This document shows positions 12,253 through 20,000 of a DNA stretch of 20,000 nt, piece after piece. Origin of the DNA: an uncultured virus (IMG/VR IMGVR_UViG_2061766007_000176). Taxonomy: Duplodnaviria > Heunggongvirae > Uroviricota > Caudoviricetes. Both the position numbers and the translations under genes were made by a program. The stretch lies in the IMG/VR virus record IMGVR_UViG_2061766007_000176, one strand, 5' to 3'. The notes beneath the pieces were generated by a model, which was not told the DNA's origin, ran no database searches, and saw only the letters and a program-made list of their open reading frames with translations. Each line of letters begins with the position of its first letter. Within the stretch, counting starts at the first letter, position 1.

Positions 12253-12255
12253 CTT

Positions 12256-12590
12256 CCCAGCCTCTTCCTTGCTGGGCGCGAAAAAGGGAAGGAAGTGAGC
12301 AGACTACTTTTAAATGTCGCCAGGAGCCATAACCCTGTAGAGTCTATCCTAGGTGGACAGAATTGCGTGCTTCTTGTTGGGTACGTTAGGCATACGCAAG
12401 AGGTGGGCTACCTACCGAGGCAACAGGCTAGCAGTGAGACTACACTTAAAACCGCATCCTTCACAGCGAAATGTGCGGGCGTAAAGCGACACGTGACATC
12501 GCTAGCACAAACAGGAGTTGCGAACCTGCGCGTGCGATTCCCGCAGTTCTGAACACCTAGCGCAATTAGCTTAGTAAGAATTGCGGGAAT
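12256..12590 (+). ncRNA. candidate structured ncRNA ending in a terminator-like hairpin
   Basis: GC-richer than flanks, multiple helices, ATTCCCGCAGTTCT/AGAATTGCGGGAAT (12537-12590) followed by T-rich tract. Confidence 0.5.
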
Positions 12591-13404: not shown

Positions 13405-13821
13405 ATGGAATATACAACAAATCAAAAGGGTTTAATTACTGAAATGGAAGTAGCATTGTATTTAATTAAATTAGGATATAATGTATCACAACCATTAAAT
13501 GCAGATAGTAAATATGATTTTATTGTGGATACTGGTAAACAACTGTTACGAATACAGGTAAAAACTTCACATTTAAATAAAAATGAAACTGGTTTTGAAT
13601 TTAAATGTCGTTCTGTAACAGTAAATAGTAACAAAGTTAATTGTCATTATTATAGTTCTGATGATGTAGATTATTTTGCGACTTATTGGAATGGAGAAGT
13701 TTATTTAGTACCTGTAAATCAATGTTCTTCGGTTAAGAATTTATATTTTGAAAAACACGCTCGTGATGGAGTATGTTGGTGCGAAGATTATAAAGCAAGC
13801 GAGGTGTTAAAAGCACTGTGA
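13405..13821 (+). CDS. PD-(D/E)XK homing endonuclease, group I intron-associated (I-Ssp6803I-like) family
   Basis: KGLITE..GYNVSQP..SKYDFIVD..LLRIQVKT..Y.SDDVDYFATY..VYLVPV; true start ATG 13405 after the N gap. Confidence 0.85.
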   Translation: MEYTTNQKGLITEMEVALYLIKLGYNVSQPLNADSKYDFIVDTGKQLLRIQVKTSHLNKNETGFEFKCRSVTVNSNKVNCHYYSSDDVDYFATYWNGEVYLVPVNQCSSVKNLYFEKHARDGVCWCEDYKASEVLKAL

Positions 13822-13832
13822 ACATTGTTAGG

Positions 13833-13882
13833 CAAGGTTAGGTCACGGGTCCGAATCCCGTTAGGTGCTCTTATATTTAGAC
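13833..13882 (+). repeat. 3' half of tRNA-Gly(GCC) plus trailer, identical to 14170-14219
   Basis: 50-nt exact direct repeat CAAGGTTAGG...TTTAGAC ending at an N gap. Confidence 0.85.
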
Positions 13883-14135
13883 NNNNNNNNNNAATGCGCG
13901 TAAAGGTGCCGACTAGGTCGCGGATCAGGTTTCATTGGCTTTAATCGCTGCGTTAAGGCAATAAAAGCATACATACGTATGGGCGCTGAGGCAACGCCCT
14001 CTATCGGAGAAACCCTCATTCAAAACGCCCGAAAACCGTAGGGAGGAATGGAGTTCCACGCCGGTGAGGCCATCCGGAATAGACAGTTCGATTCTGTATA
14101 CGGCGTACCGATATGAAGTTCGGAGTAGGGCACAT

Positions 14136-14214: not shown

Positions 14215-14336
14215 TAGACACATACAGCAAATTACTTTTTAGATGACTTGTAATCCGTGTGTTTTAGGTTCGAGCCCTGACAAGAGCATTGCTCTTGTAG
14301 CTCAATTGGTAGAGCGACGTACTTATATGGTGTCTA
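14215..14336 (+). ncRNA. stem-CAGCAA-loop element copy 3, enclosing the permuted tRNA
   Basis: TAGACAC 14215-14221 / GTGTCTA 14330-14336; CAGCAA 14225-14230. Confidence 0.7.
14245..14319 (+). tRNA. circularly permuted tRNA-Thr(TGT): 3' half 14245-14288 precedes 5' half 14291-14319
   Basis: Reordered: GCTCTTG-TA-GCTC-AATTGGTA-GAGC-G-ACG|GA-CTTGTAA-TCCGT-GTGTT-TTAGG-TTCGAGC-CCTGA-CAAGAGC-A, a complete cloverleaf. Confidence 0.85.
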
Positions 14337-14388
14337 GTTTTGCGACATAGAAATATGCCGCTTATTTGTATATAATGGAGGAAAAAGG

Positions 14389-16095: not shown

Positions 16096-17020
16096 TTTAA
16101 TTATTCCCTATTATAATAATCCAGAAGGATTAGCGCGAACCCTTGAATCAATTAATAAAGAAGTATTTCATATAACAGTAGTAGATGATAATTCATTAAT
16201 TTATATGCCTTATAATGTAGACGTAGATCAAGTACTACGCTATAATGCTAATAGAGGGCCAGGGTTTGCGCGCCAATTTGGTTTGGAAAGAACGCATGAA
16301 CCTTATGTAATGTTTCTTGATACGGGCGATGTATTTATATCTAAAGAAGTACAATATAGAATTGAGTATGAACTTGTAAATACTAAGGCTGTATTGGCAA
16401 GTTATTTATACTATCATTATGATGAACTAAGTAAACATACAGATAATCGTTTACATGGTAAAATCTATCAACGCGCATTTTTAGAAGAATATGGAATTTC
16501 ATTTCCATTGGAATCAAGTTACTTAAATGAAGATGTAGGCTTTAATAGAGCGTGTAAACTGATTATTGAAAATAACAAGTTATTACAGACACGTACAGAT
16601 TTGCCTGTAATTCGACAAACAAAAGATGAAAATTCTTTAACACAAAAAGATAATCAAGTTGTACTATATCGAGATCAAACTCGCGCGCTATCGCTTGTTT
16701 CTATTCATACAATAGATACACTTATAAAAAATAACATAAATCCGCAAGAAGAAATTAATCATATTGCGATGTCACTATATTACTGGTTTATAAGAACTGC
16801 GGCCGAAAGAATTGAATTTCTACCACAAGCATGGGATGGCGCAAAAATCTTCTATCAGAAGTATAAAAAAGAAATTCAACCAAATCAATTAGTTAATGGA
16901 AATGCGTATTTAAAAAATTGTTTAACCTATCGGCGCAAATTACATTTTCCTATTAATGTTCTTAAATTCGCACATGAAATTTTAGTAGAAGAAAATTTAC
17001 CATCTTATTATTTGACATAA
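16088..17020 (+). CDS. GT2 family glycosyltransferase (paralog of the upstream GT2 domain)
   Basis: TTG start with GGGAGG RBS; LIIPYYN..VVDDNS..NRGPGFARQFG..FLDTGD..HGKIYQR..NEDVGFNR. Confidence 0.9.
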   Translation: MIDLIIPYYNNPEGLARTLESINKEVFHITVVDDNSLIYMPYNVDVDQVLRYNANRGPGFARQFGLERTHEPYVMFLDTGDVFISKEVQYRIEYELVNTKAVLASYLYYHYDELSKHTDNRLHGKIYQRAFLEEYGISFPLESSYLNEDVGFNRACKLIIENNKLLQTRTDLPVIRQTKDENSLTQKDNQVVLYRDQTRALSLVSIHTIDTLIKNNINPQEEINHIAMSLYYWFIRTAAERIEFLPQAWDGAKIFYQKYKKEIQPNQLVNGNAYLKNCLTYRRKLHFPINVLKFAHEILVEENLPSYYLT

Positions 17021-17040
17021 TATAAAATTTCTGATATAAT
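17012..17040 (+). promoter_or_regulatory. sigma-A-type promoter (extended -10) for tRNA cluster
   Basis: TTGACA-17-TATAAT with TG. Confidence 0.85.
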
Positions 17041-17075
17041 ATTTATGTAAGGAAGGGGAAGAAACCCCTTCAGAT

Positions 17076-17148
17076 GGCTCTGTAGCGTAGCGGTTATCGC
17101 GTCGGCTTGTCACGCCGAAGATCACGAGTTCAATTCTCGTCAGAGTCG
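17076..17148 (+). tRNA. trnD: tRNA-Asp(GTC)
   Basis: GGCTCTG/CAGAGTC, TCGGC-TTGTCAC-GCCGA, T arm ACGAG-TTCAATT-CTCGT. Confidence 0.92.
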
Positions 17149-17151
17149 CTC

Positions 17152-17288
17152 ACCGTTTTGTACGATGACGGTATATAAATAATTCGGCAAACCGTTAGCA
17201 CGGATTTAGCACTTCAACTACCACCGGCACCTTATGGTGATATGTGGCATTAGCGGTAAACGGTATATAAAGAAGCGAAGTAAAGTGC
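17152..17288 (+). ncRNA. two tandem H-type pseudoknot units (ACCG..CGGT-ATATAAA), CptI-like
   Basis: ACCGT/ACGGT+ATATAAA (17152-17179); ACCGTT/AACGGT+ATATAAA (17191-17271) with GCACTT/AAGTGC second stem. Confidence 0.55.
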
Positions 17289-17297
17289 GTTTTATAT

Positions 17298-17370
17298 CGC
17301 AGGTAAGACAAGCGGCTAAGTCAGGTGGCTCATAACCATCGTTTGACGGGTTCGACTCCCGTACCTGCTA
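17298..17370 (+). tRNA. trnM: tRNA-Met(CAT) (1:72 mismatch; initiator/elongator/Ile2 status unclear)
   Basis: CGCAGGT/ACCTGCT, GGTGG-CTCATAA-CCATC, ACGGG-TTCGACT-CCCGT. Confidence 0.85.
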
Positions 17371-17374
17371 CTAT

Positions 17375-17447
17375 GGCTCCTTAGCTCAGTTGGTAGAGCA
17401 AGCGGCTGTTAACCGCTGGGTCAAAGGTTCGAGTCCTTTAGGAGCCG
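17375..17447 (+). tRNA. trnN: tRNA-Asn(GTT)
   Basis: Canonical cloverleaf, loop CT-GTT-AA. Confidence 0.95.
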
Positions 17448-17630
17448 CTTGGGAACTTGTCCCTATTAAGAACAAGTGGGCGCATCGCAGGTTCGATCTG
17501 CGTAGTCGAGAGAAAAAGTTATATATTCTATACAAGTTCGAGTCTTGTTTAGCACGGCGCAATAGATATATATAATCTGCAGTAATTAAGCTACTCTTGC
17601 CAGGCTTGGATGCATACAAGTCTGTAATAT

Positions 17631-17702
17631 GCTCCGTGGGACAGTCGGTTAAGTCATCGGCCCTTCAAGCCGGAGTGCCGAGTTCAACTCTCGGACGGAG
17701 TA
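17631..17702 (+). tRNA. trnE: tRNA-Glu(TTC), atypical G8 and C33
   Basis: GCTCCGT/ACGGAGT, TCGGC-CCTTCAA-GCCGG, CCGAG-TTCAACT-CTCGG. Confidence 0.8.
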
Positions 17703-17803
17703 CTTAGTAGTTGTCATAAAATCCCAATATGCCATCGCTATAGCTATGAAGCCCCACTTCATACAAACAACAACTACTTCCACGGGAGCATAAGCTCCCA
17801 TAT

Positions 17804-17875
17804 GCCCTATGGGGCAGGCGGTCAAGCCATCAGCCTCTCAAGCTGAAGTGCCGAGTTCGATTCTCGGATAGGGTA
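17804..17875 (+). tRNA. trnE: tRNA-Glu(CTC), atypical G8
   Basis: GCCCTAT/ATAGGGT, TCAGC-CTCTCAA-GCTGA, CCGAG-TTCGATT-CTCGG. Confidence 0.85.
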
Positions 17876-17878
17876 CAA

Positions 17879-17976
17879 ACTGCTCCCATCTCCGGCAGTA
17901 TAAACAACGGATTTAACCACCGCTATCATTGTTTCACACTTTCATGACGCGGTATATAAAACGGCATTGAAAGTGT
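17879..17976 (+). ncRNA. two tandem H-type pseudoknot units, CptI-like
   Basis: ACTGC/GCAGT+ATAAA with TCCG/CGGA; ACCGC/GCGGT+ATATAAAA with ACACTTTCA/TGAAAGTGT. Confidence 0.65.
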
Positions 17977-18002
17977 TATTACTCTATTGTGAGGTATAAA
18001 AT

Positions 18003-18953
18003 ATGGCAACAACGACAAGAAAATTTACCGCTACAGACCTAAAGAATATGTAGGGTATGGATCTTTCATGGAAGATCTAGACAACAATGGCAAAGATAAT
18101 GGAATACTATCACCACTTTGATGGCAAAGTGTATGTAGCATTTTCAGGCGGAAAGGATAGTACCGTCTTATTACACATTATCAGACAAATCTATCCAGAT
18201 GTTCCAGCAATTTTCATTGATACTGGACTTGAGTATCCCGAAGTTAAAGAGTTTGTAAAATCTTGGGATAATGTAGAAATTCGTAGACCAACTAAGACAT
18301 TCCGTCAAGTAATTGAACTATTTGGTTATCCATTAGTCAGTAAGAAAATTGCCGGATATGTCGCGACCGCAAAGCGTAATCCTAACTCTGCTCGCGCCAA
18401 ATACCTAAGTGGTGAATATGATAGTAAGATATTTGGTTTTGGTGAAGGTAAATGGTGGTACTTAGTAGATGCGCCATTTAAGATTAGTGACTATTGTTGC
18501 GATGTAATGAAAAAGCAGCCTGGACATCATTATCAGAAAGAGTCCGGTAGACATCCAATTATTGGTACTCTCGCGGAAGAATCCATTATGAGAAGAAATG
18601 AATGGCTTCGTAGCGGATGTAATGCTTTTGATGGTAAAGAGCCTATTAGCAAACCATTATCTTTCTGGACGGAACAAGATATTCTTCAGTATTTGAAGGA
18701 ATACAATGTTCCATACTGCCCGCTCTATGGCGACATTGTAGCGGATAAAAAAGGTAAGCTAAGTACAACTGGTATTCATCGTACAGGATGTATCTTTTGC
18801 GGCTTTGGTTGCCATATGGAAAAAGAACCCAATCGCTTCCAGCAACTTAAATGTTCTCATCCAAAGATCTGGGAATACTGTATGAAACCTTGGGATGAAG
18901 GTGGATTGGGTATGAAAGAAGTTTTAGATTATGTTCATGTAAAAACTGAGTAA
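18003..18953 (+). CDS. PAPS-reductase-family (PP-loop, Fe-S Cys motifs) protein; 2 N-terminal in-frame TAG
   Basis: GAGG RBS, ATG 18003, DLKNM*GMDLSWKI*TT (TAG 18051, 18078); VAFSGGKDS, DTGLEYPE, CCDVMKK, RTGCIFC. Confidence 0.88.
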
Positions 18954-18960
18954 TAAATAT

Positions 18961-18989
18961 TTGACATAAAATAAAATTTCTGCTATAAT
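18961..18989 (+). promoter_or_regulatory. sigma-A-type promoter (extended -10) driving the non-coding region
   Basis: TTGACA-17-TATAAT with TG. Confidence 0.85.
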
Positions 18990-19082
18990 ATATATGTAAA
19001 GAGGAAATAAATCATATAGGGGGTATGAACCGATATGATTCCGTTGCCTTTCTTTTGAATAAGATGAAAGGTTAAAGCAATC

Positions 19083-19136
19083 AGGCGCTAACAGCAAACT
19101 TTTTCAATGCTAAACATATTAAAAGATCGTGCGCCT
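19083..19136 (+). ncRNA. stem-CAGCAA-loop element copy 4 (skipping-rope-like)
   Basis: AGGCGC/GCGCCT stem, CAGCAA 19092-19097. Confidence 0.6.
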
Positions 19137-19171
19137 AGTATTCCCCTCTCTACTGGCTAGTGGGAATGGTG

Positions 19172-19727
19172 CTGGGTTAAGCGGAAATGAATCGCACCTT
19201 AAACACGGTATGTCCGCATACAAGCGCAACCCGCCACGGCATTTTAAATCTATTGCAATAGACCGTGGCACGCCTCTGTAAACGTCTCATTGAGGGTATA
19301 AGACAGACGTTAAACCGTGGAAATACCCCAACGCGCAAAATCATGCTGCGCGAAATAAATGAAGTGAAGCACAGGTGATCGCCACACGGAAAGTGTCTGA
19401 AAAACAAAAATGGGCGCTCCAAGGACAGGAGCGAGATCAAAAGGCTCTTGCTGGTCAGTGTGGCATGCAGAAAGCAAGTAAAACACGGGGTCGCGCACGT
19501 GCAGGGGCAGAAACGCACGTAAATAACAGACTGCCTGGGTCGTGTTTAATGAGCACAACCTTCATACGTTCGGTGCCGAGATCGTAATGGTCTCGAATAC
19601 TAGTTGCGCTGAAATGATATGGTGACCAGCAAGTCGAAAAACTGCCGTTTGGGCTGCGTGAGATGCGCCGGGTCCACCGTGCGAATGCACAAGCGTTTAC
19701 CATAGCGCTGGGTTTCGCTTCACCCAG
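19172..19727 (+). ncRNA. candidate large (~560 nt) pseudoknotted ncRNA
   Basis: Closing helix 19172-19186/19713-19727 and several 7-11 bp long-range helices, some crossing; no credible ORF. Confidence 0.65.
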
Positions 19728-19881
19728 AGGAAGTTCCTCTAAAGAAGATTATATGGTAAACCATCGGTAGACTGCTCCGAAAGGGACAGTATAAAAGATC
19801 TTCTGGCTACTCGAAGAGTAGTAGCATCCTACAATAGACCTGCCAGCGCCTCTACTGACGAGTATGCGTACCTTGGGGGGC

Positions 19882-19918
19882 ACCGCAAAGAGCACGCGGT
19901 ATATAAAGAGAATGCTCT
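19882..19918 (+). ncRNA. H-type pseudoknot unit, CptI-like
   Basis: ACCGC/GCGGT, ATATAAA, AGAGCA/TGCTCT. Confidence 0.65.
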
Positions 19919-19951
19919 CGGCCGTAGCCTGATGCATAAGGCACGGCACTT

Positions 19952-20000
19952 GCCCGAGTGGTGGAATAGGCAGACACAACAGACTTATTAATTTGAGCAC
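19952..20000 (+). tRNA. trnL: 5' exon of tRNA-Leu(TAA) followed by the start of a probable group I intron (truncated)
   Basis: GCCCGAG-TG-GTGGAATAGGCAGACAC-A-ACAGA-CTT then ATTAATTTGAGCAC; CTTA/TGAG forms a P1-like helix with U34-G wobble. Confidence 0.65.

What the first reader, a model, noticed from the sequence alone, without database searches (positions are those of the whole stretch)
17152..19918. Dispersed orphan CptI-like pseudoknots: possible RNA anti-defence arsenal against type III toxin-antitoxin systems
Seen: repeated architecture AC(C/T)G-stem / loop / C(G/A)GT-ATA(TA)AA / second stem pairing back into the loop, at 17152-17191, 17191-17288, 17879-17911, 17919-17976 (9-bp second stem), 19771-19806 (weak) and 19882-19918. 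A related unit lies at 19273-19311 (CCTC/GAGG, AACGTCT/AGACGTT). The second-stem sequences differ completely yet keep pairing. Known (recalled, needs checking): CptI antitoxin repeats of clostridial CptIN systems are H-type pseudoknots of the form ACCAC...GUGGU-AUAUAAA-stem2, and phage PhiTE escapes ToxIN abortive infection with pseudo-ToxI RNAs. No toxin gene is in this window. Inference: a diversified set of antitoxin mimics, released by tRNA processing from strong-promoter transcripts, could neutralise several CptN variants.
Basis: partly seen in the sequence, partly recalled or inferred. Interest (0 to 1): 0.87.

Follow-up and report, generated by a model that had tools for sequence, protein, structure and literature searches.

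The report
Antitoxin-like knotted RNAs in phage cluster
A cattle-gut-type phage carries several small knotted RNAs among its tRNA genes that share the folded core of a bacterial RNA antitoxin but are not antitoxins by the family's own tests, while other phages turned out to carry true toxin-less copies of that antitoxin, which points to an undescribed RNA counter-defence.

Summary
U5 is unsupported, U7 weak. The units share the CptI core (5-bp stem plus AUAUAAA loop) but are not CptI members: no tandem array, no cptN, no toxin-binding tails, and a full CptI model finds 32 of 43 held-out host loci but no window unit. Only U6 has CptI geometry; U1, U6 and U3 top a core-only model without significance; U2, U4 and U7 are larger RNAs. 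The same core recurs in unrelated phage RNAs, so my best reading is a portable stabilising module (0.5); decoy for a type III toxin is the main rival (0.3).

The parts
17012..17040 (+). Perfect sigma-70-type promoter ahead of the tRNA-Asp / U1 / U2 / tRNA-Met operon
   Evidence: 12 of 12 consensus
17076..17149 (+). tRNA-Asp(GTC); U1 starts 2 nt after it
17152..17191 (+). U1: compact unit, stem 1 17152-56/17168-72, 11-nt loop, A-rich loop from 17173, short or bulged stem 2. Relatives carry a different pseudoknot with an 8-bp stem 2 in the same slot
   Evidence: top hit of core-only model, 14.2 bits, E 0.1
17191..17288 (+). U2: larger RNA. Stem 1 17191-96/17259-64, crossing stem 2 17209-14/17283-88, inner helices 17221-24/17244-47 and 17228-30/17237-39 with a variable insert
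   Evidence: covariation; RNA contigs of relatives cover it (weak)
17298..17371 (+). tRNA-Met(CAT), 9 nt after U2
17804..17876 (+). tRNA-Glu(CTC); U3 starts 2 nt after it
17879..17911 (+). U3: compact unit, stem 1 17879-83/17895-99, 4-bp stem 2 17891-94/17908-11
   Evidence: core-only model 11.8 bits, E 0.4
17919..17976 (+). U4: stem 1 17919-23/17949-53 with an inner extension, 25-nt loop, 9-bp stem 2 17936-44/17968-76; resembles a shorter U2; ends just before the leader of the PAPS-reductase gene
18087..18953 (+). PAPS-reductase-family gene (reading under table 11; the frame is open further upstream if TAG is read as Gln)
18961..18989 (+). Perfect sigma-70-type promoter ahead of a gene-free stretch of about 950 nt
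19273..19311 (+). U7: stem 2 19281-87/19305-11 supported, local stem 1 doubtful
19537..19678 (+). cow-rumen-3 RNA (Rfam RF03083)
   Evidence: 145.2 bits
19771..19806 (+). U5: hairpin followed by an A-rich run; pseudoknot not supported
19833..19881 (+). Conserved structured domain directly 5' of U6; in relatives it precedes several different stem-1/AUAUAAA units
19882..19918 (+). U6: best CptI-like core. Stem 1 19882-86/19896-900, loops of 2, 1 and 12 nt, 6-bp stem 2 19889-94/19913-18; a movable cassette with no conserved flanks

Best explanation
The units are real RNA pseudoknot modules built on the same scaffold as CptI: a 5-bp G+C-rich stem whose minor groove is clamped by an AUAUAAA strand (A-minor twist), closed by a free-to-vary second stem. 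In this phage they are domains or end-caps of a cassette array of small non-coding RNAs, transcribed from two consensus promoters and freed by tRNA processing. Their most likely job is to fold stably and protect processed RNA ends, or to scaffold a larger RNA, not to inhibit CptN. Shown: motif excess, covariation in U2, cassette swapping among relatives, failure of the CptI model, recurrence in unrelated phage RNAs. Inferred: the A-minor twist itself (by sequence identity with the solved CptI), release by RNase P and RNase Z, and nuclease protection.
For: Conservation stops at the scaffold: 5' tails score at background in all window units (-14.5 to 0.5; background median -5.5; host leave-out median 3.5), in 19 of 19 high-scoring modules of the window and relatives (maximum -1.4; one lies inside a gene) and in 21 of 21 tRNA-adjacent viral hits (none at 2.5 or more). 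[quoted passage not shown] U6 keeps an identical core behind at least four different 5' flanks. The stem-1/AUAUAAA module is non-coding in 32 of 53 viral loci against 1 of 16 controls (p 1.2e-4), yet a local stem 2 of 5 bp or more is no commoner than in controls (37 of 75 against 8 of 18), whereas 59 of 63 host cores have one. It also lies inside one GOLLD match, in a long gene-free stretch of a family of 100-kb phages and in a T4-like intergenic leader. U1 and U3 start 2 nt after tRNAs and U1+U2 fill the tRNA-Asp/tRNA-Met spacer.
Against: Only 1 of 21 tRNA-adjacent viral hits lies within 10 nt of a tRNA 3' end, so end-capping is not a general rule. Canonical orphan CptI copies occupy the same kind of slot in other phages, one directly after a tRNA. 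Core-only scores form a continuum within the clade: 36, 28, 21 and 14 bits. One host cptI array (L689) is made of non-identical, tail-less, back-to-back cores and is itself missed by the full model. No experiment shows stabilisation.
Confidence: 0.5

Rival explanations
1. The compact units (U6, then U1 and U3) are divergent antitoxin decoys for CptN-family or related type III toxins of rumen Clostridia whose antitoxins I did not sample. Made in excess from phage promoters, they keep the toxin inactive after host transcription stops.
For: U6 scores at the 51st percentile of held-out host cores in a pseudoknot-aware score and is the only window site at 14 or more; in 607 kb of five phage records all 7 sites at 16 or more are CptI or similar non-coding units. 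U1, U6 and U3 are the top three hits of the core-only model in 20 kb. Toxin-less canonical CptI occurs in phage tRNA clusters, including G408, which shares 13 proteins with the window and has a U2-like unit 360 nt upstream. G409 and G406 mix canonical and divergent units in one array. Slot variants in relatives use the same stem-closing variants as host CptI and stand in tandem. Host L689 lacks tails.
Against: Full model fails; core-only hits are not significant (E 0.1-0.4) and the ranking is partly circular; U1 and U3 fall below every held-out host core. CptI is strictly cognate-specific and single changes kill it. Five of six proven orphans keep a 5' tail above 0, the window units do not. 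By eye, none of the 63 host cores resembles U6's stem 2. cptIN gave no phage resistance in E. coli against more than 200 coliphages.
Confidence: 0.3
2. The units bind something else: a small molecule or another host RNA-binding protein (aptamer or sponge), or U4 regulates the PAPS-reductase gene in cis.
For: U6 is invariant in its loops across relatives. U4 or U2 lies directly before the gene's leader hairpin in several relatives. SAM-II riboswitches use the same twist.
Against: No riboswitch match in Rfam at E 5 or below. Three relatives have neither U2 nor U4 before the gene (L337, L339, L340).
Confidence: 0.12
3. They are decayed relics of captured antitoxin copies, or parts of a self-cleaving tRNA-processing ribozyme.
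For: Theta ribozymes sit at tRNA 3' ends of recoded gut phages, the position of U1 and U3. Some slot variants have almost lost stem 2.
Against: Compensatory changes in U2 and invariance of U6 argue against decay. U1 and U3 have no room for a nested P3 and no C at the start of the junction after stem 1 (sequence). No ribozyme match, while a pistol ribozyme was detected in another locus.
Confidence: 0.08

Closest known systems
CptI antitoxin of CptIN (Rao et al. 2015, PMC4627078; Blower et al. 2012, PMC3401426)
   Same: H-type pseudoknot, 5-bp stem 1 with CCGC/GCGG core, AUAUAAA strand after it; U4 and U6 identical to real repeats over these parts.
   Different: No tandem repeats, terminator or cptN; no tails; loops of 25-64 nt in U4 and U2 against 8-11 in 63 host cores; full model fails.
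Pseudo-ToxI of phage PhiTE (Blower et al. 2012, PMC3475682)
   Same: Phage-encoded, toxin-less non-coding RNA resembling a type III antitoxin.
   Different: Pseudo-ToxI keeps most positions of its cognate ToxI and the cleavage site and works after tandem expansion. The window units match no sampled CptI outside the core and are single copies.
Orphan canonical CptI in phage tRNA clusters (found here; not in the papers searched)
   Same: Same genomic setting and strand, same core, sometimes in one cluster with window-like units (G408, G409).
   Different: They score 22-56 bits on the full model with exact CptI geometry; the window's best unit scores 9.8.
GOLLD RNA (Rfam RF02032; bioRxiv 10.1101/2024.12.08.627333)
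   Same: One phage GOLLD match (149.6 bits, cut-off 150) contains the module, in the region I map to the L22/J17-22 pseudoknot with A-minor contact described in the preprint (the mapping is my inference).
   Different: The window has no GOLLD match; a single example, and the GOLLD consensus there has another sequence.
Theta ribozymes (Kienbeck et al. 2024, PMC10879173)
   Same: Pseudoknotted RNAs at tRNA 3' ends in TAG-recoded gut phages.
   Different: No nested HDV-like core or catalytic C in the window units.

Membership tests
CptI antitoxin (CptIN) | Tandem 40-48-nt repeats followed by a terminator and cptN | tested here: not met
   Units are dispersed and non-identical; no + strand terminator in 16900-20000; no cptN in the window. 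The whole genome is not held; none found in 4 related or motif-bearing records.
CptI antitoxin (CptIN) | 5-bp stem 1 with CCGC/GCGG-type core followed by the AUAUAAA strand | tested here: met
   Core profile scores U4 20.7, U6 16.1, U1 13.7, within the host leave-out range 1.7-24.5; U2 8.6, U3 3.3; U7 fails.
CptI antitoxin (CptIN) | Fixed geometry: loop 8-11 nt, stem 2 mostly 5-7 bp, third loop mostly 9-10 nt | tested here: inconclusive
   Met by U6 only (51st percentile, third loop 12 nt); U1-U5 and U7 at or below the 2nd percentile of 63 host cores.
CptI antitoxin (CptIN) | Single-stranded 5' and 3' tails with the toxin's cleavage site | tested here: not met
   5' tails at background; U1 runs straight into U2. 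Caveat: host array L689 also lacks tails.
CptI antitoxin (CptIN) | Match to a covariance model of full repeats | tested here: not met
   Best unit 9.8 bits, E 5.8; 32 of 43 held-out cptN loci hit at 19.5 bits or more, window none at E 5. Rfam gave no hit on two true cptIN loci, so Rfam's silence on the window says nothing.
CptI antitoxin (CptIN) | Binds and neutralises a CptN toxin | not testable with these tools
   Needs a kill-rescue or binding assay.
Pseudo-ToxI-type mimic | Near identity to a cognate host antitoxin along its length | tested here: not met
   No host core among 63 resembles a window unit beyond stem 1 and the A-rich loop; the host sample is limited.
Theta / HDV-like ribozyme | Nested double pseudoknot with a catalytic C at the first J4/2 position | tested here: not met
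   By inspection of U1 and U3 against the description; no Rfam ribozyme hit.
Pistol ribozyme | Match to Rfam RF02679 | tested here: not met
   No hit in the window; the model rang on L098.

The most novel reading that the evidence does not exclude
The tRNA/ncRNA clusters of large gut and rumen phages are multi-specificity RNA arsenals against type III toxin-antitoxin defence. Canonical orphan CptI copies and mixed CptI/TenpI-like arrays are the visible tip, and the window's swappable units (U6, U1, U3, perhaps U2 and U4) are decoys for toxin subfamilies whose antitoxins are not yet known, working without canonical tails. This would also be indirect evidence that CptIN is an anti-phage system in its natural hosts.
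Probability: 0.3. Interest if true: 0.9.

Novelty: new variant of a known kind. Interest (0 to 1): 0.72.

Why it matters
RNA mimicry of a type III antitoxin is described for one laboratory-evolved case (PhiTE), and CptIN's anti-phage role is open because E. coli tests were negative. Natural, toxin-less CptI copies in near-complete phage records make both questions testable at once with known toxin-antitoxin pairs. The window adds a family of divergent RNAs on the same scaffold: either the edge of that arsenal, or evidence that the A-minor-twist pseudoknot, reported as novel in CptI, is a widely reused RNA building block.

Tried and rejected
No whole genome is held, so a toxin gene elsewhere in this phage cannot be excluded. 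No close relative among annotated phages. Rfam gave no hit on the units, but also none on true cptIN loci. A tandem-motif scan of viral contigs gave 27 loci and no CptI-type array among those printed (output partly cut). My control pattern was contaminated by a real family: 94 rows were excluded and 18 unique ones remained, so the tRNA enrichment is borderline (18 of 53 against 1 of 16, p 0.052). A loose profile scan at threshold 11 was noisy (70 near and 60 far from tRNAs); only scores of 19 or more were used. Three rows were misregistered by one base and ignored (L652:1334, L635:1269, L635:1594). RNA runs held only 5-8% of the words; their contigs cover U2, 19283-19490 and U6 but come from relatives and cannot show level, strand or ends. 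U6 against plasmids and a CptI repeat against GenBank phages gave only chance hits. No ToxN_toxin match in 5 phage records. A DNA-operator or late-promoter reading was rejected because the spacing varies from 9 to 64 nt and the crossing stem covaries. A hammerhead or glmS reading of U2's insert and of the domain before U6 (resemblances recalled, no call) was dropped for lack of an Rfam match. bioRxiv supplements were not available and might list such motifs.
Full report
Setting. The window is part of a large phage with a suppressor tRNA(CTA), eight tRNA calls, cow-rumen-3 and cow-rumen-4 RNAs and TAG-interrupted late genes. No whole genome is held. Relatives were fetched through the PAPS-reductase gene. 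The RNA runs that share words with the region are bovine gut runs at small share.

Observation. The coordinates are right. The anchor motif occurs 6 times in 17040-20000 against 0.054 in shuffles, and 5 copies have both stems. The best structural evidence is U2: 7 pairs with changes on both sides in 9 homologues, 3 in the crossing stem, 0 of 500 shuffles as high. U4 is consistent but weak. U3 has double changes in stem 1, U7 in stem 2 only, U6 is invariant and U5 has no homologue and no second stem. Among relatives the units behave as cassettes: they swap slots, stand in tandem, or are replaced by other pseudoknots with the same first stem.

Reference set. I read parts 2-4 of 6 of Rao 2015 (PMC4627078): the 45-nt CptI binds CptN through its 5' and 3' ends, the AUAUAAA strand forms an A-minor twist on stem 1, antitoxins are strictly cognate, and cptIN gave no phage resistance in E. 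coli. From Blower 2012 (PMC3401426) I saw passages, search rows and parts 19 and 21 of supplement 4. A tandem-motif scan of genomes gave 120 loci, 69 with period 45; the downstream protein of one matches CptN chain 4RMO at E 2e-76. With further cptN loci I collected 43 repeats and modelled 38 of them (R1); both stems covary.

Membership. R1 gives no significant window hit (best unit U1, 9.8 bits, E 5.8). On 43 of 48 newly fetched cptN loci (five fragments or repeats of G003 left out) it hits 32 at 19.5 bits or more, and the window not at all; many of the 32 belong to subfamilies in the training set. Split into parts, stem 1 plus the A-rich loop of U4, U6 and U1 scores within the host range and the 5' tails at background. 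With 63 host cores a pseudoknot-aware score puts U6 at the 51st percentile of held-out cores and the other six units at or below the 2nd. A core-only model (R2) ranks U1, U6 and U3 first in the window at E 0.1, 0.19 and 0.4: suggestive, not significant, and partly circular. No cptN lies in the window. The units are therefore not CptI members; U6 has a CptI-like core.

The module is widespread. All 84 tRNAs beside 21 unique hits are on the same strand. A local second stem is not enriched (37 of 75 against 8 of 18). The module lies inside one GOLLD match (preprint passages), in a long gene-free region of a 100-kb phage family and in a T4-like intergenic leader (the family labels crAss-like and T4-like are my recall). 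This is the basis for reading it as a portable scaffold.

True orphan CptI exists in phages. One hit, L513, was a full CptI followed by other antitoxin-like units. Its record G406 (71 kb, 87% complete) scores 48.2 and 30.9 bits, has no cptN or ToxN match and carries units that by eye resemble the TenpI repeats. A pattern for canonical CptI gave 25 viral loci, 17 beside cptN and 8 not. The 8 score 31-56 bits; 5 have tRNAs near, one starts directly after tRNA-Asn, and those 5 records have no cptN match. A second subfamily gave 73 loci, 22 beside cptN; of 36 unique ones 30 have none within 1.5 kb, 6 of them with same-strand tRNAs. The 18 of 30 that I chose by eye all hit R1 at 22-52 bits. Four whole records (three at least 91% complete) lack cptN while the control rang. 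Not all 30 are toxin-free: L737's contig carries cptIN elsewhere, some contigs are cut short and about a dozen hits look like chance. G408 shares 13 proteins with the window at 31-53% identity and holds a canonical CptI, a U2-like unit and the domain that precedes U6. G409 holds an array running from divergent to canonical units. Core-only scores run from 36 bits (G408) through 28 (G004) and 21 (U1-slot variants) to 14 (U1).

How it most likely works. Two consensus promoters drive tRNA/ncRNA transcripts. tRNA processing would free U1+U2 as one 148-nt RNA and leave U3+U4 at the 5' end of the PAPS-reductase message (inference). The twist-clamped knot would make these pieces compact and nuclease-resistant (inference; 0.5). 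The alternative is that the compact units are decoys for unsampled type III toxins (0.3). It gains from the orphan copies, the mixed arrays, the score continuum and the tail-less host array L689. It loses from strict cognate specificity and from the fact that proven orphans keep exact geometry and mostly their 5' tails. Against my preferred reading, only 1 of 21 viral hits abuts a tRNA end.

Novelty. RNA mimicry of ToxI is known from PhiTE (PMC3475682, passages). Viral tenpIN loci with toxins are reported (PMC12283969, passages). A 2026 review lists only TifA against type III systems in the passages seen (PMC13728456). PMC13682666 and PMC10879173 were seen as passages. Nine searches found no report of orphan CptI in phages or of this module outside CptI, SAM-II and glmS; the library lacks most subscription journals and bioRxiv supplements. 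The scan's earlier notes held nothing on it.

Verdict. Real structured RNAs; CptI-like in core, not CptI by membership; function untested. The interest lies as much in the by-product, natural toxin-less CptI arrays in phages, as in the window's own units. Interest 0.72; new variant of a known kind.

Noticed in passing
L635:1258-1790 and 641-695 (G406, 71-kb virus record): Gene-free array of back-to-back type III antitoxin-like units: two hit the CptI model (48.2 and 30.9 bits), others resemble TenpI by eye; no cptN or ToxN match and no tRNA in the record. The clearest candidate for an RNA anti-defence arsenal.
   Followed up: partly
L652:1290-1540 (G409, complete 107-kb phage): Array of about six pseudoknot units from divergent to canonical CptI downstream of tRNAs; no cptN match.
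   Followed up: partly
L650:1138-1540 (G408); L655, L656, L647, L742, L751, L762, L786, L791: Canonical orphan CptI copies in phage tRNA clusters; L742 and L786 carry two different CptI types in tandem.
   Followed up: partly
L689:2052-2157 (-): Host cptI array of three non-identical cores with no spacer tails between them.
   Followed up: no
L297-L318: 22 viral contigs encode a CptN relative, those inspected with upstream repeats; Blower 2012 listed no cptIN on phages.
   Followed up: partly
L042, L045, L079, L095, L452, L468: Family of 100-kb phages with the module and a covarying second stem inside a gene-free region of more than 500 nt; no Rfam hit in those scanned.
   Followed up: no
L065, L105: Module with a covarying 7-bp second stem in an intergenic leader of T4-like phages (gene identities recalled).
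   Followed up: no
   Followed up: partly
window 12255-12590 and 13890-14110: Gene-free, G+C-richer stretches after tRNAs with no Rfam match; probably further structured RNAs.
   Followed up: no
window 14239-14340: Y-RNA-like (YrlA) match below the family cut-off, 42.6 against 69 bits.
   Followed up: no
window 13405-13821: PD-(D/E)XK endonuclease gene inserted in the tRNA cluster.
   Followed up: no
window 13826-13882 and 19950-20000: A duplicate of the 3' half of tRNA-Gly beside an N gap, and a tRNA-Leu cut after its anticodon: probable assembly joins.
   Followed up: no
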